From the NCBI GenBank assembly GCA_040285855.1, contig JAUFOQ010000002.1, positions 2,108,001 through 2,172,000 on the forward strand: 64,000 nucleotides of DNA, written 5' to 3'. Both the position numbers and the translations under genes were made by a program. This document shows, one piece after another, positions 6,025-57,160 of the stretch; position 1 is the stretch's first letter; the number at the start of each line of letters is the position of its first letter. A model generated the notes under the pieces. That model worked only from the letters and a program-made list of their open reading frames with translations, was not told the DNA's origin and ran no database searches. Source of the stretch: Eukaryota sp. GEM-RC1 (taxonomy: Eukaryota).

Positions 6025-7455
<1,431 letters not shown>

Positions 7456-7793: not shown

Positions 7794-8664
7794 CAGGGCC
7801 TACGGAAAAATATTTAAATAAAATATGGCAAACTTTTTCTTGAATAAATAAATATGAGTTATTCCCGATGAAGAAAATAAATAATTGCAATTATTTAAAT
7901 TATTTATTCAATGGAAACAAGGATACTACAACACTTCACAGACGTGATCTAACACAAACACTAGTACCTCTCCAGGTTTTGTGTGTTCTTATAACTTCCT
8001 AGATCGGTTTCAGTGTTAAGAAGGAATGATTTTAATGTAGACACAGTGTTCTATTCAACGAGAATGTGGTCAAACCAAAGCGATGTTATTCAACAGTTAC
8101 CGAACAACAGCAAACACATTTTCACATATTTGGATAGTTTCAGGGTTGGAAGAATACAATCAATACCACGGGATTAGCGGTTTTGTGTTACGATGAGTAG
8201 AACTTTTTAAACCGATTTGGTCTGGCTCTGTTTCGATAGGGGAATGAACTTTGTCAAGCCCAGAAAGGAAAAACGCCATGTATTTGCACAAGATACCATC
8301 AATATTTACAAAGGAGCTACCAAGACCACTACATCATCTCATATTCATGCTCAATTCTAAGAGATAGTTTAAAATTGAATCAAAAATAGTTCAGAAAGTG
8401 TACTCTTTTCTACTGCAATGAGTGCTGTATCTAGTCGCAGTACATGATAAAGACCGTACTGACGTTGCAGAATGTGACGAACTGCAACATGTTGCAGTTT
8501 TCACCTTTATAGGTTGTCCAGTGAGAGAGCAAAAAAATATAAAAATAATTTTTTATTTTCTGTTTTAATAAAATAAATAATGGAGAAACCCAACTTGAAA
8601 AAATAAATAAAATATCATTATTTACTGTAAATATTTAAATACAGATATTTTTCCGTAGGCCCTG
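7794..8664. mobile_element. hAT-like MITE, 871 bp, 8-bp TSD
   Basis: 20-bp TIR CAGGGCCTACGGAAAAATAT / ATATTTTTCCGTAGGCCCTG. TSD ATTTTGTG at 7786-7793 and 8665-8672. A diverged second copy starts at 63419. Confidence 0.92.
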
Positions 8665-9128
8665 ATTTTGTGAATTATCTTCTAATGCTTCGTTTTAAAC
8701 ACCCCTAATGATAGTCAAAATGTAGTTTTTACTAAAAACTCCATTGACCAACAGCGTAATAGACTGGTACCAAATTTAGCGATTAAGATGAACTGTTGTA
8801 AAATTGATAGCAAAATCAAAGTCTAAATAAATAAATGTCATTTTAGTTCTGACACCTCGCTCCTCTATCGGTTTTGCTAACCATGTTGTAAAATCATGTT
8901 CTTTTAAAAAGTACATACTACATGATATGATGTGAATTGAAACACCGCTACAACCAGAATGAAAGCTGTGATATAAATGTGGTCCAGTGGGCAATCAATC
9001 CCAATTGGTTGGTTGGAAACAATAGTTGAGAAATCAGTGAACGGAAATTGGTGGTTGATCAAGTCTATTTGCTCAAAAGACGGACTCAAATGGTTATATG
9101 AAATTAAATTTTGCTACATTGTTTCGTC

Positions 9129-12100
9129 ATGGATCCCACCTTGTCTCGAAATCTTAGAGATCGCGGGGTCAGTGATGACTTTATCTCCCTGCTGGAAAAA
9201 AATGCTGTGGTGACGTTCCAAGACTTAGCTGATGTGGTGGATGAAGACTGTTTACCGCCTGGAACATCAATGGACTTTGCTAGAGTCAAAAAACTGGTCC
9301 GAGCACGGGCTTCTGGTCACATTTCAGCTCCATCAAGAAACATTGTCGAAATCAACAACAATGAAAACGAAGCTCAATCTCCACCTTTTCGAAAGCCACG
9401 AAATGAACAAACACCAGTCCAGATACCTATCACCGTTCCAACACCAACACCTACAACAACCAAGAAGCCAATCTCGACTACACTCCAAGTAAAATCAGCT
9501 GGTGTACTTCCTCTCCGTTACACTGGCACTTTTCACGAATGTCTCCTCGCATGTGAACATCGAGAAGGATCTCTTTGTCTCAACTTCTTTGGAGGCGGTC
9601 TCAATTCTCTCGAGTCACCAAAAGATGGCGCTGTCCGTGAATTCCTAGAAGAATGTTCACTAGATCGTAATCATGCTCTTTCAACCTATCTCCAATCTGC
9701 AGAGATGAAACGAACACATCTTCCTCATGGAAAGTATGAGATGTTTGTCCTGGATATATCAACTGTACGCAATGACTATGCAAAACTCTTTTCCAGTTTG
9801 AATTCTGCCTTCACTCCTAATTCTGAGGTTAAAGGTGTACATTGGGTTACTTTGGATGATCTTCTTACGGCCTCTGGATCTGTTGGATATCCTTTTTCTT
9901 CATTTATTGTCAATTCACGTCCAATCCTCCATACTTTTCTTTCTAAACTACTTCTTGATCTACCTGTCAACGACCTCAAAGAGGATAAAATCTTGCCCAA
10001 ACACTTTCAACAGTTATTAACTGAACAACGTACTGAACTGGGCAAGTCTTTAAAGAAGAAATCATTACTTGATTGGTTTCCAAACTTTAAAGAATGGAGA
10101 TTGAAGAAGTTTGATCTCTTCTTGCCAAAAGATGAGGATCTTTCCCCATTCACTGTTGTAACTAAGAACGATGCACCGTTTGCACCTTTATTACAACAGC
10201 TGTCTCTACCCCAGCAAACTTCTCAACTTATCAGCACAATTAGAAAAGTAAATGTACCAGCTAGAAAATCTGCTTTTGACCAACTCTGTAGCAAATCAAA
10301 TCAAAGTTCTATTATTAAAGTATTCCATGGTACTCCTGAATCCTGGAGAGCTACTGCTATCGCTTTGAATGGTTTCGACTTGAAAATTAAGCTAGTCGGT
10401 AGAGCTTTTGGTGATGGAGTCTATTGTACAACTGATTCCAATCAAGCTTTATCTTACTCAAAGAGTCGCGGTTCGTTGTTGAGATGTGATGCAATGCTTG
10501 AAGCCAATTCTAAGAATGTCACTCCCCAAAGTAGACCTCCTGTATACGTGTTTCCTCAACCTCATCACGTGTTACCTGTATTGTTACTGGACTTTACTCC
10601 TGACAACTCAGCATTGTCAAAGAAGACGTTGACTGCCAAGCCAAAGCAGGATAAGATAATTGAAGCTAAAAGAAAACAGATGGCCAAGGAAGAGAAGGTT
10701 GTTGAAAAGGAATTGGAAAAACGATATGGTTCCATGGTTAAAAATTTTAAAAGTAGGATTGATCATCTTGCGAATTTGTTCTCTAGGACTCCTGATGAAA
10801 GTGCTAAACTCTACAAACTCTTAAAACAAGAATCACGATATTTCGAATCAAAATTGCCCATCTACTATCACCGATCTCAAATTGTTGACGCTTTACATAA
10901 CAATAACCTCCTAATTGTTGAGTGTGATACTGGTAGTGGGAAGAGCACAATGATTTGTCAATACGTGCATGATTACTATCAAGAGCTCTCAATTGGTAAA
11001 GGTGATTCTGACAAACGAAAGATCGCTATTCTCCAACCTCGCCGTGATAACGCTATTCAGCTAGCTTCCACCGTAGCTCAGTCTAGACACGGAGTTTGTG
11101 GTGATGAAGTGGGATATTCCATTGGACTAGGGTCTCAATGTACAACTGATAATACCAAGATTGAGTATTTGACACATGGGAAATTCCAACAAATGTCTGT
11201 CAATGCGGATAATGTTTTGAGGAATTTCAAATGTGTTATTGTCGATGAAGCTCATTTCAGAAGTATTCAAATTGATTTTGTGTTGAGTTTGTTGAAGCTA
11301 GTAATTGACAAAGCCAGAAATCAAAATATTTCTGATTTTAAAGTTATCATTACCACTGCAACGTTTGATAAGCAATTTCTCAATCTTTTAAATAATTTCT
11401 ATTCATCTGTTGCACAAGTTGAAATTCTCAAATTCAACATCCCTTCCTATCCCGTTCTTGTTCATAACATTGACGTCTTTGGCGATAATTACGACCAGGC
11501 CTTGGCCCATCTTTCCTTTGATTATTTCTCTAACGCCATAATCAATGGAGCTATCGACATGACAGTTAAGTTGCTTCAGTCTACCACTGACGGTGCAATC
11601 CTTGTGTTTTTACCCTCCAAATCTTCAATTGACAAAGCCTTATCTGTCTTCAAGTCAAAGTTTATGTCACATCATCAAGGATCTAACTCATTGACCTTCA
11701 CCGACAATCACTTCTCTTTCCTTGTTGATACTAAGAGTAAAGCTCAACCTCAAGTAAGAGTTGGGATATACGCTTTCCATGGAACCCTAACTAAAGCTGA
11801 AAGAACTCGAGCATTAGAAGCAGCTGAAGATCGTTGTGTTTACTTCAGTACAGACTTGGCAGAGACTGGCCTTACTATTAGAGATGTAAGATATGTAATT
11901 GATAGCGGATTTACTCAGAACGTAAGGTGGAATTCCAAGTCAAACATGGAAGAAATGACTCGGGAGTTAGTATCGAAGTCCAGTGCTATTCAAAGGAAAG
12001 GCAGAGCGGGGAGGACTAAGTCTGGGATTTGTATCAGACTGTATCCTGAATCTGTCTTTGAAAAAATGAAAGATGGACATGAACCAGCGATCAAAACAGG

Positions 12101-14257
12101 GCACGTTTTGAAATCAGTTCTGTCGTTTTTACATCTACAATCAACTGTCGCTGATTTTGAACTGATTGATCCCTTCCATGCACAGGTTTACCAAAATTCT
12201 GTTGATTTGTTGCAAAAGTAGAAGCGATTGTTGTCAACAACAATCGAGTTAAGATCACTGCCAATGGAAAAATCATTCTTCAATTGGGAGTATCTTTTGA
12301 AAATTCGTTGTTTTTAATTAATTCAATCAGAAATAACTGCTTAGAATCAGCTACAAAGATTGTTGCCTTGATGGTGTCTAATAGCGGAGCTTTGCTATCT
12401 CAGTTGGATAGTTCTACAAAACCCAAATTTTTAAATATGAGAGGCGACCACTCCACATTATTAAATATTTTCAACACTTATTTGACAAAGAGCTCAAGTG
12501 ACAGAAATCGCTGGTGTCGTGATATCGGATTGGACCCTTCTATACTAGACGATGCACGTGTCGCCTTTGATCATTTGACTGATACTCTTAGTCGTTTAGG
12601 TTACCCGGTGCAGGATAAAATTGATACCACGAAAGGTGATATCCATGATCATATCACGTGGACTTTGTGTTCCACATTTTTTAATAATTTAGGAGTTTTC
12701 AAGGAAGCTGGAAATGTCTCAAAGCAGTTCGTAATGTTTGATGAATCTGACCTTGCTTCTGTTGAGCAAGTTGATCCCAATCGAAATGATTCTGTCACGT
12801 TGGCTCTCAGTCACTCATCACTTCAATTCTGGAAGGATGAAGAGCTCTCGCCTAATGCTAATTACATTGTTTTCTCCTCGTTGATGTCCAATGTCACCCA
12901 TGATCCTGAAACTAGAGAGAAAACCTTTAAGAATTCTATCAATTTTGTTTCTTTCTGTACCACTGAGGACTTGGTCAGGAGTAGTCCTCAATGGAGAGCG
13001 GCAACCCTGGAAAAACAACTACAGAAGTTTTCTCGTGTCCGTTTTGACATTCCAATCACTCCAGATCAACAACGACTTCTTCTTTCAAATAGAGGTGAAC
13101 ATGTTAAGATACTAAAACAACAAATCAAGCGTGCTGATATCAGAATCACAAAGTCTGCCACTGGGCAAAATCAAGTCTCAGTTTCTTGTCCTTCAGGAGT
13201 CAAACATCACGTGGAGCGCCGTGTTGGAGAGTATTTGGACTCGCAAAAACCAGAAGTGATTGTCTTTAAGAACTTAGAAGGGGTTGACTTTGGTAAATTT
13301 ATTGGAAAGAAACGTTCAGCTGCTAATGATTTGGAGGCAAAGCTTGACAAAACACTGGAATCTATGGTATCTAAACCTTCAAAGGTCAAACTTGATATCA
13401 TTTCTAATCAAAATGAGCTCAGAGTCACAATCCCCAACATCCCTCCCCAGTTCACTTCAGTAATTGTTGGTTTGGTGCAGTCGGCGCTTGCTTCTTGTGT
13501 TACTGGAACTACTACCGTAGATCTATCTAATATTTCTTCCTCTGGATCTTTCTCTCAACATTTAAATCAAAATCCAAGACTGCTGAAATTAGTTTCGTCT
13601 GTTGTTCCTCGACCAAATGACAATAACAGAAACAATTGGGTTCTTCTCGTTGCTCACGTTGCTATTTGGGAAATTGGGTTGTCCTTATATGGTGGCTTCG
13701 TACGTGACTACGTCATCAGAAATCAACCAGCCAATGACGTGGACTGTTTAGTACCTCCTTCTTTAATGGGAAAAGTTCCATCAATGTTTAAACAGGCTCT
13801 CTCTAAGTACAATATTTCTTGTGGTTCACCCAGAACTAAAGGAAACGCTCATTGTATTGATGCGACTCTTCCTGATGGCAGTAATCTTGAAATTGATCTT
13901 ACACCATCAGATATGAAGATTCAAAAGCCCTACGTTGATGCTGATATTAATAACCTCATGGTTGACAAAACAGGATTGTTGCAGAAGATTAAAGGAGCTG
14001 GAGGTAGTCTTTGTAATCTTGCTGTATCAATCCAACATTGTCAAAACAAAGAGTTTGTGTTTTTCTATTCCTGTCAGGTGGACCCGAAAATGTGTGAAAG
14101 ACGGCTTAAAAAGATGTTGGGTAAGGGTTTTACTTGTTTATCACCTTTGCCTAGCTCAATGACACGGAAATTGACCAATTTCAATCAGTTGTTGAAACCA
14201 GACAAACAGTTTGATGTTAAATTTGACAATCTTCCACCGCATTTACAACTCCCTTAA
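9129..14257 (+). CDS. ~1700-aa multidomain protein: SAM-like + NUDIX + PARP-like ART + DEAH-box RNA helicase (HA2/OB) + two KH-like + Pol-beta/CCA-type nucleotidyltransferase; one -1 indel at ~12219
   Basis: Nudix box GGLNSLESPKDGAVREFLEECSL (~9594-9660). PARP motifs FHGT, GRAFGDGVY and VYVF..HVLP (~10310-10595). Helicase motifs DTGSGKST, DEAH, TAT, STDLAETGLTI and QRKGRAGR. Adding one base at ~12219 gives a continuous HA2-like LLQKLEAIVVNNNRVKITANGKIILQLG. KH-like segments LLSNRGEHVKILKQ and FIGKKR. NTase motif YGGFVRD..ANDVD at ~13690. Confidence 0.88.
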
Positions 14258-15587
14258 GCTTAATGTAGATTTAAATATTCTTATGTATAATATATTCATG
14301 TGATTTTCCTACATCGATTCTTGTTCAAATCACACATAATTTAACTCTACGAATATACCATTTCAAAGTACATGGAAGTAGTTTTCGAAACATGTATGTG
14401 ATCTGTCAAGACCGACAGAACTCGGCTCGGAAACAAAATAGGGAAAGGAAAGGGAAATGAAAACGATTCTAGTACTCCATGTACACCCATAACTTAACAT
14501 CTCAAGGACATTCAACAATTACTGTATCGATGTTAGATGAATCTTATGAGGTCACATGACCTGGAAGTAGAAGATAAACTGACATTACCAACTTTGGAGC
14601 AGGGACAGAGAAGATGGAATAAATATGCTGCAAAACATGGTTTTTCAGTAGCCCTATTCGGTAGTCCTGAAAACACAGGTTACGCTTAAAAGTAAGATGC
14701 CTCAGGTTAGCTAGAAAGCACTTCCATCGAAAGAAACAGACGTATAGTTGGTACAAACTGCGGCTTCAGCATATACGACCGTCGTCAAGGAGAATCATTG
14801 ACTGCTACAGCTAAGAACTTAACCCACAGTCATGCTCCTGTGGAGGACATCTGTTGCTTGCCCTGCTTATCTCCAGAACAGACCAGTCTGCTGGCACTTT
14901 TAAGTTTTCATGATACCAACAAAAAAATCCTTACTACTTTTCACAAACTCTCTGCAAAAAGAACTTGGACAAACAAATTCTTTTGACCTCAAGGGATATT
15001 TCCAATGTAAAATGGAAGTTGAAAAGAGTGCTGATGGCCATGTAATCGAGAAGTATAGTGATGATTACCACATTTTGCCCCAGTACGATGACGGGAACAG
15101 TGTTACTGGTTTTGTTGATTACAAAGAAGGGTCGGTGAATATATTTACAATGCAACTAAGCATTACAAGGAGTTCAAAAGCGAATGTTCATGTCTATGAA
15201 AGCAAATAGTGTTCACCTTCACCTAGGGATCTTGGCTTTCACCTATTTAATAAAAGTAAATTTATCCAAAGTAGTTAAAGGCAGTTTTTTGAAATGTATG
15301 TTTCATTTCCGACACTGTTCTGTTCTCTACTATTGACAACATAAGAAAAAAAAGCAACCAGTTCTTCGTTTTAGTTTGTGATAGCATACTTTCCTTGAAT
15401 TCCATTGATTTGATGATGGAGTGCCATATCAACAAGTCTAGGTGAGAAATCTTATCACACCATGAACTACTGTCAGAGATCGATCAATGAAAAACAGTAG
15501 TTGCTGAATAAAGAGACGTAGGTTGGGTCAGAAATTTGGAGAATGGACTGTTTCTAATTTTAAACAAAATTGGCGCAAATTTTCTTG

Positions 15588-17256
15588 ATGATCGCACGTC
15601 GCTATAGAACACTTAATCTTCACCATCCTTTAAGGAACGATCTTGATAGCAGTTGTTCTTCCGTAAATAAGGCTCCAGCCTTGTCCCGTATTCCTAAAGC
15701 CCTGGAATCTGTCATTGATCCTCAAGTGTTTGTTCCTAGCACACTCATCTTACTTCAGATCTCGCCGCCGTCTATCGGGATCTTCCAGGTGCCCTCCTGT
15801 TAAGAAAACCAACCAATCTGACTCTTCGCCACACCCTTCCCCACGATCTAATCTCTCCTTCTCTAAAACCAAGGCAATCTCCCCTGTTCAAGGCCGCTTC
15901 GGCGTTTCCACACAGAACTCGTCTCAAAAACAAAATATCAGCACTTCCTCAAAGACCGAATTCCTGAATCTTTCCCATTGGATGTGGCGTGAGGTAGGGG
16001 GAGAGTGGAAACCATATAGCACTCTGATTTCAGACAGAATTGAACTGAAATGGTGTGACTTTGGCAAAAGAACATTGGAGCCCAATTTTACCACCACTTT
16101 GACTCGATTAAATGACAATCAAGAACAAAACTATTCTATTAATATCCTAACAATGAAACAGAAGAACCTCAAGACACTCTTCACACGTTCAATCAAGAGA
16201 GACAAAATTGATGTTGAAGTTCGTGGTAAAGGTAAGTGGCAGTTCAGTACCTCTTTGGGATGGGATACGTTCGACGACAGCTGTCAAGATCATTTGGAAC
16301 AATCATTTATCAACTACTGCACATCATCTGGTCCGTCTATTTGTTGGCTTACAATTTCAAAGTCGACTTACAAGATTGATCTTGCCCGTGGTATTCGATG
16401 TAATGTAGACACTTTGTCTGTACGTAGGCTACGAAGATTGTACAATGATTTATCCACAACAAAGGTCGCTGGCAAATCAGTAAACAGTGTTGTACTTCCA
16501 TCCAATTCTTCGCTGTCACTTCTAGCCGTGAGTGAAGCTAGATTTCCAAGCAGCTCTAAGTCTAAAACTACTTCAACCAATTTGGGCGGTCACAACACTC
16601 GCTTGAACCAGTTGCTTTCACCCACGACACCATTATTTACATCAAAGTCAAGAGATCAAGTGCAAGCAGTTCTTTGTCATATTCTTCTTTGGAAATGTAG
16701 ATGTACTATCTACGGTGGCTATGTAAGAGATTTCGTTATACGAGGCACACCAGCAAATGATATTGACGTTGTAGCACCGTCATCAGAACTTGGACCAGTA
16801 ATCAAGAAGTTCATATCAGAAACAGGCAAATCTGGACTGTTCATAAGTAAAGAACGCATAACAGTGATAGCCTATGTTGTCCAAAAGCTGACCATCACTG
16901 TTTCTGATTTTGATTTTGAAGTGGACTTCACCGCTCCTGGTGCTTCCCGTAAAGCTCAAGGAGCTGCCCCACCCTACGTTGAAGCTGATGTTTCAAATCT
17001 CCAACTTTCAGTCGATAAAAAGCTACATCTTAAGGAACCACTTGCTGACCCTCATGTAGACTTTAATGTTATTATAGATCACTGTCTTAGAAAACAGTTT
17101 GTGTTCTACTATGATCTAACAAAGTACCCAAACCTTTGCTACAGATTGAAAAGGAGGGTGCAGCGTGGATGGACGTGTTTGACGGCGATTCCCAAGCGTC
17201 ATCATCATGTGTTCCACAAACAGAATCATTTGTATCGACCTGTGAAAGCTCGTTAA
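15588..17256 (+). CDS. Tandem WWE-WWE + CCA/poly(A)-polymerase-like nucleotidyltransferase, ~545 aa; exons 15588-15727 and 15759-17256 (start codon tentative)
   Basis: WWE1 WMWREVGGEWKPYSTLISDRIE..YSINILTMKQKNLKTLFTRSIKR. WWE2 WQFSTSLGWDTFDDSCQDHLE..YKIDLARGIRCNVDTLSVRRLRR. NTase YGGYVRD..ANDID. A 31-nt intron at 15728-15758 (GTTTGT...CTTACTTCAG) joins the 15570 and 15715 ORFs in frame. Confidence 0.85.
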
Positions 17257-17344
17257 TTTATTGTATTTCTATAGTTTTTGTACTTTGTGTATCATATGTA
17301 TTGACTAATAAATGTATATATTTTTATTTTTGATGGATGTACAC

Positions 17345-18010
17345 CAGGGACTGGAAAACATATATTGATATTGCAATATATTGCAATAAATACAATAACA
17401 ATATGGTACTGTATTGATGGTACATAAACAATAACAATATCAGATTGTTGGTGCCTGTAGAATAAATATTGCAATATATTAATGGGATATTGTTAGTAAA
17501 AACATTGATACGTCAGTGCTTTATACAATTTTTGTGGGAGAAAACAGTATCCATTAGAAAAGACATTGCGTCCTTAAGAAGAAGGAAACTAAACAAGACC
17601 ATACAGTGAGTTCGACATTCGCATTCGACTGTCAAATTATTGTTTCAAGCACCAGCGAGTCAGAGTACATTAAGTTTTCAATCATTCACCCGCCCTCCAA
17701 TGAAGTTCAGAGGCTCATCAGTCACACAAAACCTACTATAGGTTGTTATTGACATGCTTTAGATAGATCTTGCGCTACAATCCTGCTTTCTAGAATGAAA
17801 AAACTGTTGTTGCAAACAAACTCCGTTATGTTTGTATTTTCCAATATTGCAATATATTGTCCATAAATATTTATTTATTGTTCCTAATAACAATACCATA
17901 TTGTTCCAGTTCTCTTATTGTCAATAAATATTGTTTGTGGACAATAAATATAAATATATTTTTTCGGTACCGGCATTGGTGGACAATAAATATAAATATA
18001 TTTTTTCGAC
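17345..18010. repeat. Degraded TIR-element remnant with ATTGCAATA motifs
   Basis: Begins CAGGGACTGG, the same end as at 1447. Contains a short direct duplication TGGACAATAAATATAAATATATTTTTTCG at ~17938 and ~17980. No clean TSD found. Confidence 0.45.
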
Positions 18011-18163: not shown

Positions 18164-20396
18164 TCAGGATGACAGTGATGCTCTTATAGAACTCTTTCGA
18201 TCAAGAAATGACTGTATTTCACTCGCAGTTGTTATCCTCTTTTTCCATTTAAAGTTCCTTTCTGTTCTTGGTACATCATTTGCAGTCGTAAAAGATCTCT
18301 TTTGCCTCTCCCATGCCTCCAGAACATGTCACAGACAGCATTAATGGGGTTCCAGTCACAAAGTTTGTCAAAACAATGGATTGCAGTGAATAAACGATCG
18401 TTTCGTCTGTTTGCATTAAGAACTTCGATACACTTTCCTACTAAATGATGATGAAGAAGTTTAATTAGGGGAGGTGGAAGTGGAAGCTTGGGAATGACAG
18501 TCCCACTGAGAGAACTATCAATAAGGTTAGAATAATCATTAGTCAATCCAATCAAAATAGATTGATTGAAAGAGGATTCTGAAGCAGGTTCTGATAAGTT
18601 AGGTAAACACGCAAACTCTAACAATGAAGACAACAACTTGTTATCAAATGAATGACCAATTCTTTGTTCTAAAACAGAAAGTAATTCGGAAATAGTGACA
18701 GTTTCCCTACTAGAACTTATAATCCAGATTTCCGAAAGCAGGAGAAATAGACGGTCATTATACAAAGCCAAATGACGTGGTGCATTGTCAATGTCAAATG
18801 AGATAAACAGATTCATCATATTAGAAACTAAACAACTCAATAATGTACTTAGGTTATAAGTTTCATAGTAAGGAACTGTGGAGTCGTAATACTTGTCTCT
18901 GCCAGCTTCACCACATGAATAACCACTTAAAGGGAAAGTGAAAGATATTGCCATGAGAACAACATCAACAAATCGTACTTTTGGAAAGGTTTCACGATAT
19001 CCTTCCAAAAACAAGCGTCGTTGATTCAAGTAACGAATGACAAGAAACAACAAAAGACGGTATTCTCAACCTCACATACTTCTTCAAACAAATGAATCCA
19101 AGATGAATGGATATCTGGAGTAGACCATTCATTACCATAAGAGTGGTTACTGAAACTTTCAATTATGGATAAGAGCATTTCAACAGAAGATCTTGATCCT
19201 TCTAGTAGCAACTGGCGATGTTCAGGGGCAAGAACATTATCAAGCGAGTCTAGGAATTTTTCAGATATAGGAACACTCCCTTGACAACCACCAAGACTGT
19301 GATTACTTCTAAGAAATTGAATAGCAGGGGTTGCATACTTGAGGATGACACTGTAGTGGCGAGGAACATGTAAGGAATCAAAATACTCCAAGTCTAGTTC
19401 CAAGTCAGGCTCTTCAAACTTGTCCAAAGGCTGAACTTTCTCATACTGAATCCTTGCAACTGATGAAGAATCACTATAGGTAGTAGGAAAAACAAGATCT
19501 GTGGATATTTTGTAGTTATTCAGAGTGGAGAAAACAACAGTTGCCGCATGCGGATTATTGGCAAGAAATACAGTCCATAAATTACAATTGTCATCAGAAT
19601 TGAAAAAGTTCAACACTTCTTCATACTTTTGGACAGTATTTGAAGTAGATGCCAACCTGTAATTTTAAAAAGCCGGCACTTTGATTCATTAATTGCAAAC
19701 AAAGCGACCATCTTTTCAAAAGGAAGAAAACGATCTTGATGAAAAAGAAACATTTGTCCCGTTTTACCATCATACAATTGATCATAAAACTCTTTCAATC
19801 CAAAATCTCCTCTAAAGAAAGCAACTTTACACCTTTGATGGAAAAACAAGTGAACTTTGGAAGAAAACGCATAATAGGAATCATTCTGACGAACTTCTTC
19901 AGCAATGTGGTGAGTTAAACTACCACTTGGTATGAATTTAACCTTGTTTCCGTGTTCATCATTAGGATTGTTCACATCAAGTGCATTCCATAGAAGAAGA
20001 ATGTCTTGATTGAAAGGTGTTGGAAGTTTCTGTGGTTGGTTAACAATCTGAGCTGGTGTATATTGACGCTTAGAATGTGTTTCCGTCACCTTGTGGGGGG
20101 AAGAAACGGGAGCGTCTGAAATAGAAGATGAAATATATGTTGTGTTCGTTAAACTTCAAGAAGAAGTTGCGGAACAATCTGTTAACAGCGACTGCAGAGT
20201 AACCTGCTGAGTAATCAGGAACCAGTTGTTCGATGAGATAGGATCGGAATTCATAAGTGTCAACGACGAGGTACAGAGGTTGAGTTTGGTTAGAACCTAT
20301 AACACGTTCCTCTAATGCATGCCTGACGTTATGATGAGAACTATCGAGAAGAAAAGGAATCCATTCTTTGGAAAGAATCACAAGAGGAGACAACAT
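18164..20396 (-). CDS. Array gene copy 1, uncharacterised ~740-aa protein, possibly degenerate PIN (FAM120/Asteroid-like); several indels; distinct C-terminus
   Basis: Four consecutive ORF pieces are collinear with copies 2-5, and the breaks lie in homopolymers. Confidence 0.7.
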
Positions 20397-21563
20397 GAGG
20401 TAGTTCAACAGTATTAACTTGACGAAAAGTCGGAGGAGTCTTGAGAAAGGAAAAATTGGGATTTTACTGAAAACAATTTAGAATTCAACCTCCAGACAAA
20501 TTGGGATTTTAGATGACCGGCGTGTTGTCTTTGAAACCCGTTGACTGATTGATATATTTTAGGAATTGTTTACTTATAATGTATAGATGAAACATTGTAA
20601 ATTCGGTTTAACGATTGCGTTCTCGTTGCAGAAATTTCAACATTTATAGACAATGATTCTGTAGTACATAGAAACGCTATAACATACAACTGAGTCACGA
20701 AGTTGTGACGAAATTCAATATTTATATATGATGGTATTGGTCATATACAGCGCCTATCAGCGATAGTTTATTCAAACTTGGCATTAATAAAAATCTATCA
20801 AATTTGTTCTGTTTTCAGGGTGGAAATAACTGTGGTTTCTTGTGATAACAACATGCAGACCTTAAAACTGGATTTTGATGAAGACAAACTCGAAGTCCAT
20901 TCATTATGGTTAAAGATGATTGGTTTAGTGGAATTGAAATTGAAAAATACGGTTATATCGCTGAACACAAACAATTTGAGTTATCATTAAGACAATAATA
21001 CTCATGTAAATTGGTTTACTTGATGACTCCAAAAATAAATACATAAGACACTAAATGATTTCTAATGTAATAAGTTGGGACTATTGATTGAACTGAGCTA
21101 ATGAAACTACGGACTGGGATTTGACCGTTCAAGCTGAAACAAACAGAGGTGAGCCCAGGTGTAACACTAATCATTTTAGGACGAAACGACAAATACACAA
21201 CTTAGTGACCGAATCTAGAACTCAGATAAAACTTCTCTCACAAACGGCAAATACCCACTACTAAAGACTATCAGATTCAAAGATGTTTACGGCATTGACT
21301 TTGTCAGAAGAAAATCCTCTTGTAAAACGGAAGACTATCACTTCAAAAGAGTACAAGAAAACACATGACTGATCTGTTTTTATGAAAATAAACAACAACA
21401 AACGACTCCCCTCTAAACTCAAGTTAGAAATGGAAGTAGCAGAAGTTGGTTATTTAATAAATTATGGATCGTCAACATTACATGTTTTTCATGTATATAG
21501 CTAAAGCTCACATGTTTAGTAACTTAATATGAATTTGAAATTGTACCCATTTGCTGTATTGAT

Positions 21564-22168
21564 CAGGCTTCACAAAAGTAGTAAAGTGCTAAAGTGACTT
21601 TATTTTACTTTACTTTAAAGTTTTGGAAAGGTAAAGTAACAGACCTCAAACTTGTTTAGTTTGCCCTCTGAGCACTGCAAATGACTCTTTTATACCAGTA
21701 TAACATGTTCTATCATAGGAACTCAACAAAAACGCAAAACAAAAAACGATGTAAAATTGTTTCTAACAAAAACTTATTCAACCAAGATCCATTATTCAAA
21801 CGTCAGGTCACTTCAGCTCACTTCAATAGATCAATCAGTATCTGACAGTTCGAGATTGTCCCCTTTAAAAACAGAAACCAGTTCAATTCCGATACACTAT
21901 TCGTTATGTCTCTTCAGTTTTGGATAACTCTCGACCCATTACCTTCTGGTATCCTTTGTTCGGAGTTGAGTGAAGTCCTGTGTTAAAGGGAAGCGGAAAC
22001 TGAATATCTAAACTGAAGAGAGAAAGTTGTGAAAAGAGGATTGAGATCAGGTCAAACTTTATTGACCTTAAAGTAACTTTTTAGCTGAAGTAAAAGTAAA
22101 GCTTAAAGTAAAGTAAATAACTTTACTTTACTTTAATTTTGAATTTTGGACTACTTTAGTGAAGCCTG
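21564..22168. mobile_element. hAT-like MITE, 605 bp, 8-bp TSD (copy 1)
   Basis: TIR CAGGCTTCAC.AAAGTAGT / ACTACTTTAGTGAAGCCTG. TSD GTATTGAT on both sides. AAAGT/ACTTT subterminal repeats. Confidence 0.9.
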
Positions 22169-22220
22169 GTATTGATCCAATGAAACAGTTTTAATAGAAT
22201 TAATAAGTTCAACTTCAGGA

Positions 22221-24554
22221 CTACAACGATACTTTACGAAAACTCTTTTCAACATTAACAACATTAGCTGTAATAAATAGTTTAACAAATTTGCAGGTCA
22301 AACAGCTGATCGAAGATGCATACTCATCATCCAGGCTTAGGACAATTTTTTTTTATCAAGAAATGACTGTATTTCACTCGCTGTTGTTGTCCTCCTATTT
22401 CCATTTAAAGTTCCTTTCTGTTCTTGGTACATCATTTGCAGTCGTAAAAGATCTCTTTTGCCTCTCCCATGCCTCCAGAACATGTCACAGACAGCATTAA
22501 TGGGGTTCCAGTCACAAAGTTTGTCAAAACAATGGATTGCAGTGAATAAACGATCGTTTCGTCTGTTTGCATTAAGAACTTCGATACACTTTCCTACTAA
22601 ATGATGATGAAGAAGTTTAATTAGGGGAGGTGGAAGTGGAAGCTTGGGAATGACAGTCCCACTGAGAGAACTATCAATAAGGTTAGAATAATCATTAGTC
22701 AATCCAATCAAAATAGATTGATTGAAAGAGGATTCTGAAGCAGGTTCTGATAAGTTAGGTAAACACGCAAACTCTAACAATGAAGACAACAACTTGTTAT
22801 CAAATGAATGACCAATTCTTTGTTCTAAAACAGAAAGTAATTCGGAAATAGTGACAGTTTCCCTACTAGAACTTATAATCCAGATTTCCGAAAGCAGGAG
22901 AAATAGACGGTCATTATACAAAGCCAAATGACGTGGTGCATTGTCAATGTCAAATGAGATAAACAGATTCATCATATTAGAAACTAAACAACTCAATAAT
23001 GTACTTAGGTTATAAGTTTCATAGTAAGGAACTGTGGAGTCGTAATACTTGTCTCTGCCAGCTTCACCACATGAATAACCACTTAAAGGGAAAGTGAAAG
23101 ATATTGCCATGAGAACAACATCAACAAATCGTACTTTTGGAAAGGTTTCACGATATCCTTCCAAAAACAAGCGTCGTTGATTCAAGTAACGAATGACAAG
23201 AAACAACAAAAAGACGGTATTCTCAACCTCACATACTTCTTCAAACAAATGAATCCAAGATGAATGGATATCTGGAGTAGACCATTCATTACCATAAGGG
23301 TGGTTACTGAAACTTTCAATTATGGATAAGAGCATTTCAACAGAAGATCTTGATCCTTCTAGTAGCAACTGGCGATGTTCAGGGGCAAGAACATTATCAA
23401 GCGAGTCTAGGAATTTTTCAGATATAGGAACACTCCCTTGACAACCACCAAGACTGTGATTACTTCTAAGAAATTGAATAGCAGGGGTTGCATACTTGAG
23501 GATGACACTGTAGTGGCGAGGAACATGTAAGGAATCAAAATACTCCAAGTCTAGTTCCAAGTCAGGCTCTTCAAACTTGTCCAAAGGCTGAACTTTCTCA
23601 TACTGAATCCTTGCAACTGATGAAGAATCACTATAGGTAGTAGGAAAAACAAGATCTGTGGATATTTTGTAGTTATTCAGAGTGGAGAAAACAACAGTTG
23701 CCGCATGCGGATTATTGGCAAGAAATACAGTCCATAAATTACAATTGTCATCAGAATTGAAAAGTTCAACACTTCTTCATACTTTTGGACAGTATTTGAA
23801 GTAGATGCCAACCTGTAATTTTAAAAAAAAGCCGGCACTTTGATTCATTAATTGCAAACAAAGCGACCATCTTTTCAAAAGGAAGAAAACGATCTTGATG
23901 AAAAAGAAACATTTGTCCCGTTTTACCATCATACAATTGATCATAAAACTCTTTCAATCCAAAATCTCCTCTAAAGAAAGCAACTTTACACCTTTGATGG
24001 AAAAACAAGTGAACTTTGGAAGAAAACGCATAATAGGAATCATTCTGACGAACTTCTTCAGCAATGTGGTGAGTTAAACTACCACTTGGTATGAATTTAA
24101 CCTTGTTTCCGTGTTCATCATTAGGATTGTTCACATCAAGTGCATTCCATAGAAGAAGAATGTCTTGATTGAAAGGTGTTGGAAGTTTCTGTGGTTGGTT
24201 AACAATCTGAGCTGGTGTATATTGACGCTTAGAATGTGTTTCCGTCACCTTGTGGGGGAAGAAACGGGAGCGTCTGAAATAGAAGATGAAATATATGTTG
24301 TGTTCGTTAAACTTCAAGAAGAAGTTGCGGAACAATCTGTTAACAGCGACTGCAGAGTAACCTGCTGAGTAATCAGGAACCAGTTGTTCGATGAGATAGG
24401 ATCGGAATTCATAAGTGTCAACGACGAGGTACAGAGGTTGAGTTTGGTTAGAACCTATAACACGTTCCTCTAATGCATGCCTGACGTTATGATGAGAACT
24501 ATCGAGAAGAAAAGGAATCCATTCTTTGGAAAGAATCACAAGAGGAGACAACAT
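22221..24554 (-). CDS. Array gene copy 2 (~775 aa after correcting indels)
   Basis: ORFs 23766-24566 and 22337-23584, plus a 3' tail homologous to copy 4. Confidence 0.72.
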
Positions 24555-25721
24555 GAGGTAGTTCAACAGTATTAACTTGACGAAAAGTCGGAGGAGTCTT
24601 GAGAAAGGAAAAATTGGGATTTTACTGAAAACAATTTAGAATTCAACCTCCAGACAAATTGGGATTTTAGATGACCGGCGTGTTGTCTTTGAAACCCGTT
24701 GACTGATTGATATATTTTAGGAATTGTTTACTTATAATGTATAGATGAAACATTGTAAATTCGGTTTAACGATTGCGTTCTCGTTGCAGAAATTTCAACA
24801 TTTATAGACAATGATTCTGTAGTACATAGAAACGCTATAACATACAACTGAGTCACGAAGTTGTGACGAAATTCAATATTTATATATGATGGTATTGGTC
24901 ATATACAGCGCCTATCAGCGATAGTTTATTCAAACTTGGCATTAATAAAAATCTATCAAATTTGTTCTGTTTTCAGGGTGGAAATAACTGTGGTTTCTTG
25001 TGATAACAACATGCAGACCTTAAAACTGGATTTTGATGAAGACAAACTCGAAGTCCATTCATTATGGTTAAAGATGATTGGTTTAGTGGAATTGAAATTG
25101 AAAAATACGGTTATATCGCTGAACACAAACAATTTGAGTTATCATTAAGACAATAATACTCATGTAAATTGGTTTACTTGATGACTCCAAAAATAAATAC
25201 ATAAGACACTAAATGATTTCTAATGTAATAAGTTGGGACTATTGATTGAACTGAGCTAATGAAACTACGGACTGGGATTTGACCGTTCAAGCTGAAACAA
25301 ACAGAGGTGAGCCCAGGTGTAACACTAATCATTTTAGGACGAAACGACAAATACACAACTTAGTGACCGAATCTAGAACTCAGATAAAACTTCTCTCACA
25401 AACGGCAAATACCCACTACTAAAGACTATCAGATTCAAAGATGTTTACGGCATTGACTTTGTCAGAAGAAAATCCTCTTGTAAAACGGAAGACTATCACT
25501 TCAAAAGAGTACAAGAAAACACATGACTGATCTGTTTTTATGAAAATAAACAACAACAAACGACTCCCCTCTAAACTCAAGTTAGAAATGGAAGTAGCAG
25601 AAGTTGGTTATTTAATAAATTATGGATCGTCAACATTACATGTTTTTCATGTATATAGCTAAAGCTCACATGTTTAGTAACTTAATATGAATTTGAAATT
25701 GTACCCATTTGCTGTATTGAT

Positions 25722-26324
25722 CAGGCTTCACAAAAGTAGTAAAGTGCTAAAGTGACTTTATTTTACTTTACTTTAAAGTTTTGGAAAGGTAAAGTAACAG
25801 ACCTCAAACTTGTTTAGTTTGCCCTCTGAGCACTGCAAATGACTCTTTTATACCAGTATAACATGTTCTATCATAGGAACTCAACAAAAAACGCAAAACA
25901 AAAACGATGTAAAATTGTTTCTAACAAAAACTTATTCAACCAAGATCCATTATTCAAACGTCAGGTCACTTCAGCTCACTTCAATAGATCAATCAGTATC
26001 TGACAGTTCGAGATTGTCCCCTTTAAAAACAGAAACCAGTTCAATTCCGATACACTATTCGTTATGTCTCTTCAGTTTTGGATAACTCTCGACCCATTAC
26101 CTTCTGGTATCCTTTGTTCGGAGTTGAGTGAAGTCCTGTGTTAAAGGGAAGCGGAAACTGAATATCTAAACTGAAGAGAGAAAGTTGTGAAAAGAGGATT
26201 GAGATCAGGTCAAACTTTATTGACCTTAAAGTAACTTTTTAGCTGAAGTAGTAGAAGCTTAAAGTAAAGTAAATAACTTTACTTTACTTTAATTTTGAAT
26301 TTTGGACTACTTTAGTGAAGCCTG
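25722..26324. mobile_element. hAT-like MITE (copy 2, duplicated with the array unit)
   Basis: Same TIRs and same GTATTGAT TSD as 21564-22168. Confidence 0.9.
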
Positions 26325-26376
26325 GTATTGATCCAATGAAACAGTTTTAATAGAATTAATAAGTTCAACTTCAGGA

Positions 26377-28709: not shown

Positions 28710-29878
28710 GAGGTAGTTCAACAGTATTAACTTGACGAAAAGTCGGAGGAGTCTTGAGAAAGGAAAAATTGGGATTTTACTGAAAACAATTTAGAATTCA
28801 ACCTCCAGACAAATTGGGATTTTAGATGACCGGCATGTTGTCTTTGAAACCCGTTGACTGATTGATATATTTTAGGAATTGTTTACTTATAATGTATAGA
28901 TGAAACATTGTAAATTCGGTTTAACGATTGCGTTCTCGTTGCAGAAATTTCAACATTTATAGACAATGATTCTGAAGTACATAGAAACGCTATAACATAC
29001 AACTGAGTCACGAAGTTGTGACGAAATTCAATATTTATATATGATGGTATTGGTCATATACAGCGCCTATCAGCGATAGTTTATTCAAACTTGGCATTAA
29101 TAAAAATCTATCAAATTTGTTCTGTTTTCAGGGTGGAAATAACTGTGGTTTCTTGTGATAACAACATGCAGACCTTAAAACTGGATTTTGATGAAGACAA
29201 ACTCGAAGTCCATTCATTATGGTTAAAGATGATTGGTTTAGTGGAATTGAAATTGAAAAATACGGTTATATCGCTGAACACAAACAATTTGAGTTATCAT
29301 TAAGACAATAATACTCATGTAAATTGGTTTACTTGATGACTCCAAAAATAAATACATAAGACACTAAATGATTTGTAATGTAATAAGTTGGGACTATTGA
29401 TTGAACTGAGCTAATGAAACTACGGACTGGGATTTGACCGTTCAAGCTGAAACAAACAGAGGTGAGCCCAGGTGTAACACTAATCATTTTAGGACGAAAC
29501 GACAAATACACAACATAGTGACCGAATCTAGAACTCAGATAAAACTTCTCTCACAAACGGCAAATACCCACTACTAAAGACTATCAGATTCAAAGATGTT
29601 TACGGCATTGACTTTGTCAGAAGAAAATCCTCTTGTAAAACGGAAGACTATCACTTCAAAAAGAGTACAAGAAAATACATGACTGATCTGTTTTTATGAA
29701 AATAAACAACAACAAACGACTCCCCCTCTAAACTCAAGTTAGAAATGGAAGTAGCAGAAGTTGGTTATTTAATAAATTATGGATCGTCAACATTACATGT
29801 TTTTCATGTATATAGCTAAAGCTCACATGTTTAGTAACTTAATATGAATTTGAAATTGTACCGATTTGCTGTATTGAT

Positions 29879-30481
29879 CAGGCTTCACAAAAGTAGTAAA
29901 GTGCTAAAGTGACTTTATTTTACTTTACTTTAAAGTTTTGAAAAGGTAAAGTAACAGACCTCAAACTTGTTTAGTTTGCCCTCTGAGCACTGCAAATGAC
30001 TCTTTTATACCAGTATAACATGTTCTATCATAGGAACTCAACAAAAACGCAAAACAAAAAACGATGTAAAATTGTTTCTAACAAAAACTTATTCAACCAA
30101 GATCCATTATTCAAACGTCAGGTCACTTCAGCTCACTTCAATAGATCAATCAGTATCTGACAGTTCGAGATTGTCCCCTTTAAAAACAGAAACCAGTTCA
30201 ATTCCGATACACTATTCGTTATGTCTCTTCAGTTTTGGATAACTCTCGACCCATTACCTTCTGGTATCCTTTGTTCGGAGTTGAGTGAAGTCCTGTGTTA
30301 AAGGGAAGCGGAAACTGAATATCTAAACTGAAGAGAGAAAGTTGTGAAAAGAGGATTGAGATCAGGTCAAACTTTATTGACCTTAAAGTAACTTTTAGCT
30401 GAAGTAAAGTAAAGCTTAAAGTAAAGTAAATAACTTTACTTTACTTTAATTTTGAATTTTGGACTACTTTAGTGAAGCCTG
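29879..30481. mobile_element. hAT-like MITE (copy 3, duplicated with the array unit)
   Basis: Same TIRs and GTATTGAT TSD. Confidence 0.9.
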
Positions 30482-30533
30482 GTATTGATCCAATGAAACA
30501 GTTTTAATAGAATTAATAAGTTCAACTTCAGGA

Positions 30534-34581: not shown

Positions 34582-34671
34582 CAGTGAACGCTAACACGTT
34601 TAAAAATCGAATCTAACACGTGTTAACACGCGTGTTACGTGTCAGGCCGTGTTACGTGTTAGCGTTCACTG
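34582..34671. mobile_element. 90-bp mini TIR element
   Basis: Perfect 18-bp inverted ends CAGTGAACGCTAACACGT / ACGTGTTAGCGTTCACTG and internal TAACACG repeats. Flanks are imperfectly duplicated (CAAAAAT / CATAAAAT). Confidence 0.7.
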
Positions 34672-57105: not shown

Positions 57106-57160
57106 AATCAATGTTGTGTGGGAAGTTGTCAATTTAGTCCATCTAGATGTCAGCCTACAT

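What the first reader, a model, noticed from the sequence alone, without database searches (positions are those of the whole stretch)
9129..17256. Candidate ADP-ribosylation-coupled RNA end-modification system: NUDIX-PARP-DEAH-KH-NTase fusion next to a WWE-WWE-NTase partner
Seen: two adjacent co-oriented genes end in clearly paralogous nucleotidyltransferase domains (H..W...YGG[FY]VRD[YF]VIR..PAND[VI]D, PYV[DE]AD, HC..K.FVF[FY]Y, R....G[FW]TCL). Gene 1 adds ART, NUDIX, helicase and KH-like domains; gene 2 adds tandem WWE domains. Established: WWE domains often bind ADP-ribose chains, PARP-family ARTs write the mark, some NUDIX enzymes cleave ADP-ribose or RNA caps, and animal antiviral PARPs (PARP12/13/14) combine ART, WWE and RNA-binding domains. 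Inference: this is a writer/eraser plus reader pair in which RNA sensing by the helicase triggers ADP-ribosylation that recruits a second tailing enzyme, possibly as protist antiviral defence. I know of no described system with this architecture.
Basis: partly seen in the sequence, partly recalled or inferred. Interest (0 to 1): 0.93.

Follow-up and report, generated by a model that had tools for sequence, protein, structure and literature searches.

The report
Protist helicase–PARP–RNA-tailing gene pair
Two neighbouring genes in a single-celled eukaryote encode a large fusion of RNA helicase, ADP-ribose-transferring and nucleotide-adding domains, and a short relative with ADP-ribose-reader domains; both belong to an apparently undescribed family shared by distant protist groups that likely marks and tails foreign or faulty RNA.

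Summary
Gene 1 (9129-14257, one frameshift at 12214-12218, probably an assembly indel) is NUDIX-ART-DEAH-KH-KH-NTase. Gene 2 (15588-17256, one 31-nt intron) is WWE-WWE-NTase. Both NTases have a CCA/poly(A)-polymerase-like head with intact catalytic aspartates but lack the RRD and EDxxR motifs. The family has two conserved architectures in distant protists: type A ([Macro]-NUDIX-ART-DEAH-KH-KH-NTase; gene 1) and type B (DEAH-RBR-ART-WWE-WWE-NTase). Gene 2 is the C-terminal part of a type B protein, not a local copy of gene 1 (AU p 5e-12). A related isolate has type A two locus numbers from a long type B gene, and 2 of 3 metagenomic type A loci lie beside a short WWE-like-NTase gene. Corrections: the ART lacks the chain-building glutamate (0 of 41), so it is likely mono-ADP-ribosylating; gene 2's second WWE has Q-to-R at the ZAP Q668 position; WWE and ART normally share one chain; gene order is not conserved. 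Best reading: RNA surveillance, likely antiviral, by helicase/KH-guided 3' tailing plus mono-ADP-ribose marking; recruitment of gene 2 by gene 1's mark is possible but unshown.

The parts
9129..14257 (+). Gene 1, type A protein (about 1,709 aa if read through): small N-terminal domain-NUDIX-ART-DEAH-HA2-KH-KH-NTase, in two frames
   Evidence: colinear with P0041 (46% identity over both halves) and P0170+P0044 (48-55%)
9129..9330 (+). Small N-terminal domain shared by the four closest orthologues; SAM-like by eye, not confirmed
   Evidence: alignment; no Pfam SAM hit for this stretch; only weak SAM_1 hits in related loci (L019 E 0.22, L009 E 0.015)
9492..9866 (+). NUDIX hydrolase domain with intact Nudix box
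   Evidence: Pfam E 3.3e-6; box G and R in 22 of 22, three box glutamates each in 21 of 22 type A domains; Z 12.3
10221..10601 (+). PARP-type ART, triad H-Y-V (predicted mono-ADP-ribosyltransferase)
10854..12143 (+). DEAH/RHA helicase core with motifs I, II (DEAH), III and VI intact
12214..12221 (+). Frameshift: A-run one base short, followed by a premature stop; probably an assembly indel, not checked against reads
   Evidence: near-identical tandem copies elsewhere in the window differ by 8 and 12 gap openings against 6 and 14 mismatches
12254..12997 (+). Helicase-associated region (HA2 and the segment after it)
   Evidence: family profile; homologues have Pfam HA2_N/HA2_C here
13019..13489 (+). 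Two type I KH domains (13019-13240, 13274-13489) with degenerate GxxG loops
   Evidence: AlphaFold model; KH matches Z 7-8, Foldseek E 1.5e-4 to PCBP2 KH1-2
13565..14254 (+). NTase 1: minimal class II CCA/PAP-like nucleotidyltransferase, type A clade
14258..15587 (.). Intergenic 1.3 kb; no trace of ART, RBR or helicase; 14537-14860 resembles a broken FAR1/MULE transposase piece by eye only
   Evidence: no Pfam hit
15588..17256 (+). Gene 2 (545 aa; exon 1 15588-15727, intron 15728-15758, exon 2 15759-17256): low-complexity N-terminus-WWE-WWE-NTase, a shortened type B derivative
   Evidence: spliced product identical to P0001
15979..16200 (+). WWE1 with intact W, Y, Q-x-N and R pocket residues (predicted ADP-ribose reader)
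16237..16437 (+). WWE2 with R in place of the pocket Q (predicted non-binding)
16588..17253 (+). NTase 2, type B clade, catalytic aspartates intact; 51 aa from WWE2 against 98-184 aa in ART-bearing type B proteins, so the intervening domain (KH-like in many) is lost

Best explanation
Gene 1 encodes a conserved NUDIX-ART-DEAH helicase-KH-KH-nucleotidyltransferase fusion that likely acts as a one-chain RNA-surveillance enzyme, and gene 2 is a shortened relative of the sister (type B) protein that would carry the same nucleotide-adding activity to ADP-ribose-marked targets through its first WWE domain. Shown: the domains, intact catalytic residues, two ancient architectures across distant protists, the type B origin of gene 2, and repeated linkage of family members. 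Inferred: the KH pair and the helicase hold and unwind a target RNA; the minimal NTase, lacking the CCA template motifs and tRNA-binding body, adds a non-templated 3' tail (which could also give the helicase a loading end); the mono-ART marks the RNA end or bound protein; NUDIX (and Macro in many orthologues) removes caps or the mark. The target is likely foreign (viral) RNA. The two genes sit together mainly because family members cluster, with cooperation possible but not obligatory.
For: Of 136 NTase hits, 33 of the 42 longer than 900 aa carry a DEAH helicase; in these 33 the NTase is C-terminal, preceded by KH-like domains in most. Type A occurs in metamonad-related isolates, the oomycete Aphanomyces stellatus and the holozoan Capsaspora; type B in Carpediemonas, Aphanomyces, Lagenidium, Paulinella and Pedospumella. 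A and B helicases form two clean groups (26 vs 7 rows, SH-aLRT 100). Closest solved NTase folds are RNA 3'-tailing enzymes (CCA/PAP Z 10.7-9.8; TENT5/FAM46 further down the Foldseek list). The ART fits PARP13/10/15 best (Z 16.1, 15.6, 15.3 vs PARP1 13.2). Short WWE-NTase forms recur: Pharyngomonas P0022, labelled a complete ORF and also without the KH; P0085, L009, L014 and P0123. Conflict-type signs: several diverged copies under one species label, varied fusion partners, giant-virus NTases as top viral folds, a tandem array in a giant-virus contig (L002), and Gad2-like phage clusters as top feature matches.
Against: No activity, substrate, expression or induction data. The NTase lacks motif B (RRD) and motif D (EDxxR), so RNA as acceptor rests on context; a protein acceptor or soluble product is not excluded. 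The KH GxxG loops are degenerate. The family has no nuclease domain. Gene 1 is frameshifted in this assembly; gene 2 has lost helicase, RBR, ART and KH and has a likely dead WWE2. Presence of both A and B in one species is shown only for the three related isolates and Aphanomyces stellatus. The antiviral role is by analogy; PADLOC gave only generic helicase hits.
Confidence: 0.45

Rival explanations
1. Sensor plus signal or protein modifier: RNA binding by the helicase switches on the NTase, which makes a small nucleotide signal or attaches a nucleotide to proteins (cGAS/OAS-like or Gad2-like) instead of tailing RNA; NUDIX and Macro turn the signal off.
For: No RRD, EDxxR or tRNA-binding body. 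Top Atlas feature matches are phage clusters carrying Gad2 on 30-53% of members, score 0.95; Gad2 is a predicted nucleotidyltransferase that blocks Gabija defence (passages). Giant-virus relatives are fused to RING, F-box or BTB domains, which point to protein targets.
Against: CD-NTase and OAS-type folds score lower (CdnB Z 6.7) than CCA/PAP (Z 10.7). KH domains sit directly before the NTase in both architectures, as expected for an RNA acceptor. No receptor gene is seen beside any locus.
Confidence: 0.22
2. One reading: gene 1 and gene 2 are a dedicated writer/eraser and reader pair, in which RNA sensing triggers ADP-ribosylation by gene 1 that recruits gene 2 to add a second tail.
For: Not a local duplication (AU p 5e-12). 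The gene 1 orthologue P9112_012668-012669 lies two locus numbers from type B P9112_012666 on one contig. Short WWE-like-NTase genes lie next to type A in L019 and L009. WWE1 pocket intact; tandem WWE closest to Deltex (E 6e-19).
Against: Mono-ART triad, so no chains (0 of 41 with E). Type B has its own ART next to the WWE pair (12 proteins). Order differs (tandem here, divergent in L019, convergent in L009, type B at the lower locus number in TZLM1-RC). In TZLM3-RCL the B-clade genes found are 30 and 97 locus numbers from type A; in Aphanomyces A and B are on different contigs; L011 and L016 show no partner within their contigs. WWE2 is likely dead.
Confidence: 0.15
3. Housekeeping RNA repair or quality control: the protein heals and re-tails damaged cellular RNA ends (ART on terminal phosphates, NUDIX/Macro clean-up, NTase restoring 3' nucleotides), with no immune role.
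For: All catalytic domains can act on RNA ends, and no nuclease is present. CCA-type NTases, ARTs and Macro domains cooperate in RNA repair in jumbo phages (passages). Types A and B are conserved over deep time.
Against: Patchy spread, several diverged copies per genome and shifting fusion partners fit conflict genes better; the RBR E3 region in type B is not needed for repair.
Confidence: 0.13
4. Gene 1 works alone and gene 2 is a decaying fragment of a type B gene, left beside it by cluster rearrangement.
For: Gene 2 lacks helicase, RBR, ART and KH; WWE2 Q-to-R (1 of 24); low-complexity leader; many partial B-clade copies in related isolates.
Against: Uninterrupted 545-aa frame with intact catalytic residues despite 41-48% divergence from its paralogues, and no long branch. 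The same short form recurs independently.
Confidence: 0.2

Closest known systems
Animal RNA-binding mono-ARTs PARP12/PARP13 (ZAP) and PARP10/14/15
   Same: PARP-type ART without the HYE glutamate (best fold matches); WWE, Macro and RNA-binding modules in one chain (review passages); WWE1 keeps the ZAP Q668/N670 pocket.
   Different: Here the ART is internal and is joined to a DEAH helicase, NUDIX or RBR, and a C-terminal NTase; no CCCH fingers; found in protists.
Class II CCA-adding enzymes and bacterial-type poly(A) polymerases; TENT5/FAM46
   Same: Head fold and motif A with DxD.
   Different: No RRD, no EDxxR template, no body/tail; about 230 aa; own conserved motifs (H..W, [DE]xDxxN, F.F.Y, R..K...GW.C); mostly a module of larger proteins.
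Deltex E3 ligases and the PARP9-DTX3L/PARP14 system
   Same: Tandem WWE closest to DTX1 and Deltex; type B joins an E3-type zinc-finger region, ART and WWE.
   Different: The E3 is RBR-like (IBR hits), in one chain with a helicase and an NTase. The DTX3L/PARP9 comparison is recalled.
Phage Gad2 (PF26128) and giant-virus DUF5769 NTases
   Same: Small stand-alone NTases closest by language-model features and predicted fold; phage nucleotidyltransferase phrog_1614 matches 13 of 42 family members.
   Different: Virus-encoded, no helicase or ART; relationship remote and not shown by a significant sequence alignment for Gad2.
TRAMP complex (Trf4-Air-Mtr4), recalled
   Same: Non-templated tailing coupled to an RNA helicase and an RNA-binding subunit.
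   Different: Three subunits, a Trf4-type polymerase and a Ski2-like helicase, no ADP-ribose chemistry; Trf4 scores Z 7.0 only.
Plant DEAH11/DEAH12 helicase-RBR proteins, recalled
   Same: DEAH helicase followed by an RBR region, as in type B.
   Different: Not known to me to carry ART, WWE or NTase; not compared here; the 5 papers listed for DEAH12 (listing only) concern other topics.

Membership tests
Class II CCA/poly(A) nucleotidyltransferases | Motif A (GGxVRD...DxD) binding two metals | tested here: met
   GG.[VIL]RD pattern in 119 of 124 and DxD in 121 of 124 family domains of at least 190 aa; present in both genes; motif roles from PMC7947759 passages
Class II CCA/poly(A) nucleotidyltransferases | Head-domain fold | tested here: met
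   Z 10.7, rmsd 3.5, 163 aligned to 4wby; the next three hits are also CCA/PAP enzymes
Class II CCA/poly(A) nucleotidyltransferases | Motif B (RRD) | tested here: not met
   No RRD in either NTase; RRD anywhere in 4 of 124, R.D[FL]T.N in 0 of 124; a [DES]x[DSN]xxN motif in 119 of 124 instead
Class II CCA/poly(A) nucleotidyltransferases | Motif D amino-acid template (EDxxR) | tested here: not met
   Absent from both NTases; the string occurs anywhere in 4 of 124
Class II CCA/poly(A) nucleotidyltransferases | tRNA-binding body and tail | tested here: not met
   Both proteins end about 230 aa after the domain start; the match covers 4wby only to residue 213
Class II CCA/poly(A) nucleotidyltransferases | Adds nucleotides to RNA 3' ends | not testable with these tools
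   needs an enzyme assay
Poly(ADP-ribose) polymerases (chain-forming) | H and Y of the HYE triad | tested here: met
   H in 41 of 41, Y in 40 of 41 family ARTs
Poly(ADP-ribose) polymerases (chain-forming) | Catalytic glutamate needed for chain elongation | tested here: not met
   V in gene 1; 0 of 41 have E in that column, and gene 1 has no E in the ten residues around it. The column was placed by alignment and recalled spacing, not by a residue-level superposition. Rule from PMC2964712 passages
Antiviral mono-ARTs (PARP10/12/13/14/15) | Mono-ART-type catalytic fold | tested here: met
   PARP13, PARP10 and PARP15 are the top three, Z 16.1-15.3
Antiviral mono-ARTs (PARP10/12/13/14/15) | ART at the C-terminus | tested here: not met
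   ART is internal in both architectures; the animal proteins have it C-terminal
Antiviral mono-ARTs (PARP10/12/13/14/15) | Induction by virus and restriction of virus | not testable with these tools
   no expression data
ADP-ribose-binding WWE domains (ZAP WWE2/RNF146 type) | Buried Q with N two residues on, plus aromatic and R pocket residues, in gene 2 WWE1 | tested here: met
   Q in 24 of 24, N 22 of 24, Y 24 of 24, R 23 of 24, gene 2 included; the WWE2 Q column aligns with the ZAP Q-x-N and WWE1 repeats the same motif; ZAP residues from PMC8853533 passages
ADP-ribose-binding WWE domains (ZAP WWE2/RNF146 type) | Same pocket in gene 2 WWE2 | tested here: not met
   R in gene 2, Q in the other 23 of 24; ZAP Q668R does not bind PAR
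NUDIX hydrolases | Nudix box Gx5Ex7REUxEExGU | tested here: met
   (final G is S in gene 1; box pattern recalled)
NUDIX hydrolases | Substrate class (cap or ADP-ribose) | tested here: inconclusive
   RenU, DCP2, an ADP-ribose pyrophosphatase and a viral decapping enzyme tie at Z 12.3-11.7
DEAH/RHA RNA helicases | Motifs I, II (DEAH), III, VI (QRxGRAGR) and HA2 region | tested here: met
Gad2 anti-defence NTases (PF26128) | Match to the Gad2 family | tested here: inconclusive
   Atlas score 0.95, 174-176 of 256 features shared, with clusters where 30-53% of members carry PF26128; no alignment given; no such family hit among 42 members in the Pfam copy scanned
Plant DEAH11/DEAH12 | Orthology of helicase and RBR regions | not tested
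   resemblance recalled; no plant sequence was fetched

The most novel reading that the evidence does not exclude
Many protist lineages share an ancient RNA-defence system of two paralogous helicase-ART-NTase giants (types A and B), plus short WWE-NTase adaptors that arose repeatedly. A helicase-triggered mono-ADP-ribose mark on foreign RNA or its bound proteins is read by WWE domains and answered by a new class of nucleotidyltransferase that tags the RNA or makes a signal, and giant viruses carry relatives of the same NTase as counter-measures. This would be a protist forerunner of the animal ZAP/PARP14/Deltex antiviral axis, wired directly to RNA 3'-end chemistry.
Probability: 0.25. Interest if true: 0.92.

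Novelty: categorically new. Interest (0 to 1): 0.74.

Why it matters
Little is known of how protists defend against viruses. This family puts an RNA motor, an ADP-ribose writer, erasers (NUDIX, Macro, once PARG), readers (WWE), an E3-type region and an unclassified nucleotidyltransferase into two fixed architectures found in metamonad-related isolates, stramenopiles, a rhizarian and a holozoan, with a short WWE-NTase form in a heterolobosean. It gives single, soluble-looking domains for direct tests of whether ADP-ribosylation and RNA 3' tailing are coupled. The NTase may also shed light on the uncharacterised giant-virus DUF5769 proteins and on phage Gad2. The novelty rating rests on searches of the held library only; three comparative-genomics surveys I wanted were not held, and I put about 25% on a prior description there.

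Tried and rejected
Reads: no sequencing run was listed for 9000-17400, so the frameshift and expression could not be checked. No whole genome is held, so neighbourhoods in related isolates rest on locus numbers and contig lengths. Complex prediction of KH-KH-NTase 1 with gene 2 gave 'no answer' (score 0.02, mark 0.34) and is not used either way. Local NTase duplication as the origin of gene 2 was rejected (AU p 5e-12; separate clades at 99 and 100). A broken type B N-terminus upstream of gene 2 was sought and not found (tblastn of 140 proteins; ten family profiles, best score under 0 bits). Chain-forming PARP and true CCA-adding enzyme were rejected. A viral origin of the locus is unlikely: neighbours are alpha-tubulin, a saposin-like gene, IFT57 and RHD3. 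SAM at gene 1's N-terminus and a FAR1/MULE remnant between the genes got no Pfam support. The profile search of longer proteins was crowded out and gave 2 hits among 7,992 scored. Prokaryotic genomes could not be scanned with either alignment, so absence from prokaryotes is not shown. PDB sequence search with the NTase profile gave nothing under E 0.1. Literature: searches returned 0 papers; some searches listed 5, 2, 6 and 7 papers, none of which describes this architecture by title or abstract start (only PMC7824862 was opened, as passages). Three surveys on RNA repair and ART evolution were not held. Four look-ups of earlier findings were empty.


Full report
1. What is in the window. The region is intron-poor eukaryotic DNA of about 36% GC, with alpha-tubulin, a saposin-like gene, IFT57 and RHD3 nearby. 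Gene 1 starts at 9129 and stops at 12219-12221; the next frame carries on to 14257. The break is one base short in an A-run at 12214-12217. Three close orthologues read through it: P0041 (1,709 aa, 46%) and P0094 (1,760 aa, 40%), and P0170 (48% and 52%). RHD3 and two RING-kinase genes in the window are also split across frames, and near-identical 4.15-kb tandem copies differ by 8 and 12 gap openings against 6 and 14 mismatches. An assembly indel is the likely cause, but no reads could be laid. Gene 2 runs 15588-17256 with a 31-nt intron; its spliced product equals P0001, which the source labels Eukaryota sp. GEM-RC1. A search listing links that label to the metamonad genus Skoliomonas (listing only).

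2. Domains. Pfam finds NUDIX, PARP (26.2 bits, just under its cut-off of 26.7), DEAD and Helicase_C in gene 1 and two WWE in gene 2, but no family above cut-off for either NTase. A model of gene 1's last 419 residues (pLDDT 92.9) shows two type I KH domains (Z 7-8) and a class II CCA/poly(A)-polymerase-like head (Z 10.7, rmsd 3.5, 163 aligned). A model of the NUDIX-ART part (pLDDT 82.8) fits PARP13, PARP10 and PARP15 best (Z 16.1, 15.6, 15.3) and NUDIX enzymes at Z 12.3 and below. The two NTases share 31% identity.

3. Catalytic residues. NTase: motif A in 119 of 124 and DxD in 121 of 124 family domains, both genes included; no RRD and no EDxxR in either gene (4 of 124 each carry the string anywhere). 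These are the class II motifs B and D (PMC7947759, passages). ART: H in 41 of 41 and Y in 40 of 41, but E in 0 of 41 at the third triad position, V in gene 1 (three near-copies were dropped before the count). The glutamate is needed for chains, and enzymes without it are mono-transferases or inactive (PMC2964712, passages). The NUDIX box and helicase motifs are intact. WWE: the family's Q-x-N aligns with ZAP's, and ZAP Q668R does not bind PAR (PMC8853533, passages). Gene 2 keeps Q in WWE1 (24 of 24) but is the only 1 of 24 with R in WWE2.

4. The family. A search of 1.84 billion representatives with NTase 2 gave 136 hits. Of the 42 longer than 900 aa, 33 carry a DEAH helicase, in two fixed layouts. 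Type A is [Macro]-NUDIX-ART-DEAH-HA2-KH-KH-NTase (26 with helicase, 22 of them with ART detected). Type B is DEAH-HA2-...-RBR-ART-WWE-WWE-(KH-like)-NTase (7 with helicase; 12 proteins with RBR-ART-WWE-WWE-NTase in all). The other 9 long hits are partial type B proteins or other fusions. Thirty proteins were looked up for names. Type A is named from TZLM3-RCL, TZLM1-RC, Aphanomyces stellatus and Capsaspora; type B from Carpediemonas, Aphanomyces, Lagenidium, Paulinella, Pedospumella and TZLM1-RC; a 415-aa WWE-WWE-NTase, labelled a complete ORF, from Pharyngomonas. The helicases split cleanly into A and B (26 and 7 rows, SH-aLRT 100). The NTase tree does not (7 changes, no better than shuffled; poorly resolved), which may mean domain exchange or lost signal.

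5. What gene 2 is. It matches the C-terminal part of type B without helicase, RBR or ART, and without the domain between WWE2 and the NTase (51 aa against 98-184 in ART-bearing type B proteins). No remnant of the missing part lies upstream. Its NTase groups with the B-clade copies of the three related isolates (support 100), while NTase 1 groups with their type A copies (99, quick tree, 123 rows). Forcing the two together is rejected (AU p 5e-12). But the WWE pair normally sits right behind its own ART, so it did not arise as a reader made for gene 1.

6. Is adjacency more than chance? In TZLM1-RC the orthologue of gene 1 is P9112_012668 plus 012669 (sister to gene 1, support 99), two locus numbers from long type B P9112_012666 on the same 948,807-base contig, with two more B-clade NTases at 012684 and 012698. 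In TZLM3-RCL, type A is RCL1_005753 and the B-clade genes found are 005723 and 005656 on the same contig, 30 and 97 numbers away. In Aphanomyces, A and B are on different contigs. Of 23 metagenomic loci, three independent ones hold a type A gene. L019 (same DNA as L008) has a divergent gene with four WWE-like repeats and an NTase. L009 has a convergent gene of the same kind. L011 has none within about 1.3 kb upstream and 3.1 kb downstream. The repeats reach only 19.1 bits against the WWE cut-off of 21.1. In L019 the two NTases are 94% identical, a local copy; in L009 they are 39% identical. L014-L016 hold the short gene with no type A within 13.9 kb. So linkage recurs and short WWE-NTase forms arose more than once, but order and origin differ each time. 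This fits a clustering, shuffling gene family better than a fixed two-gene unit.

7. Viral relatives. The top predicted viral folds are giant-virus NTases, some fused to RING, F-box or BTB. L002 holds six NTase genes in tandem in a 1.26-Mb viral contig, one of them tested and matching DUF5769. Language-model features point to phage clusters that partly carry Gad2 (score 0.95), an anti-Gabija protein predicted to be a nucleotidyltransferase (bioRxiv 10.1101/2023.05.01.538930, passages). These are leads for a role in host-virus conflict, not proof.

8. Mechanism. Shown: anatomy, intact active sites, two ancient layouts, the origin of gene 2, and recurring linkage. Inferred (confidence 0.45): KH domains and the helicase engage an RNA; the stripped-down NTase adds a non-templated 3' tail; the mono-ART marks the RNA end or a bound protein; NUDIX, and Macro in 8 type A proteins, remove caps or the mark; gene 2 would bring the NTase to ADP-ribose-marked targets through WWE1. 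An antiviral purpose follows by analogy with animal mono-ARTs (PMC10057411, passages) and from the conflict-type spread. Rivals: a nucleotide signal or protein modification (0.22), a decaying gene 2 (0.20, compatible with the others), the strict writer-reader pair (0.15), and housekeeping RNA repair (0.13; compare PMC7824862, passages).

9. Novelty. Each domain is known, but the NTase fails three defining features of CCA/PAP enzymes and passes no Pfam cut-off, and I found no description of either layout. Searches returned no papers; searches listed none that fits by title or abstract start; a eukaryote-wide PARP survey has no occurrence of 'helicase', 'IBR', 'NUDIX' or 'nucleotidyl' in its main text (supplements not seen). 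Three surveys that might mention it were not held. I rate the family as categorically new in architecture, working like ZAP/PARP14 joined to a TRAMP-like tailing unit (TRAMP and DEAH12 comparisons are recalled), and the specific recruitment model as possible but unshown. Interest 0.74.

Noticed in passing
window 18190-37233: Tandem array of about 4.15-kb units (18200-32852, 97-99% identical) plus a 93%-identical partial copy at 35199-37233, each encoding a protein of about 700 aa with no Pfam hit; most copies are split across frames.
   Followed up: partly
window 46625-48249 (+) and 55110-57132 (-): Two RING-protein kinase-coiled-coil genes, 77% alike in DNA over 650 bases, each split by a frameshift; the first ends in a ubiquitin domain.
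   Followed up: no
window 8089-8668 and 63415-63998: A 580-base element, 89% identical and inverted, one copy 460 bases upstream of gene 1; possibly a small transposon.
   Followed up: no
window 14537-14860: Broken reading frames between the two genes resemble a FAR1/MULE transposase DNA-binding piece by eye (recalled pattern); no Pfam hit.
   Followed up: partly
window 43401-45701 and 53098-53607: RHD3-type GTPase gene in three frames, and a PIF1 helicase fragment.
   Followed up: no
L019:2845-7020, L008, L009:3-2465: Type A proteins of this GC-rich lineage carry a WWE-like insert inside the HA2 region, so ART and a WWE-like repeat share a chain in some type A proteins too.
   Followed up: partly
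L019:1-123 and 6900-7022: Both contig ends are the same 123 bases, inverted, inside the NTase of two divergent genes; the NTases are 94% identical, a sign of recent copying or conversion.
   Followed up: partly
L002:8380-15765; L003:9863-10786; L001:6672-9272; L021:6031-8541: Giant-virus-type contigs carry related NTases: six in tandem (L002), an NTase-RING fusion (L003), and a longer form (L001, L021) that in L021 lies beside what looks by eye like a major capsid gene.
   Followed up: partly
P0007, P0076, P0051, P0091, P0087, P0106, P0113: The NTase is also fused to a microbial-type PARG plus WWE, a protein kinase, cold-shock domains, RRMs, a lone ART (either order) and leucine-rich repeats.
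   Followed up: no
P0171 (GEMRC1_007530): A second, partial type A copy under the same species label as P0001, ending just as the NTase begins; at least four further B-clade NTases carry that label.
   Followed up: partly
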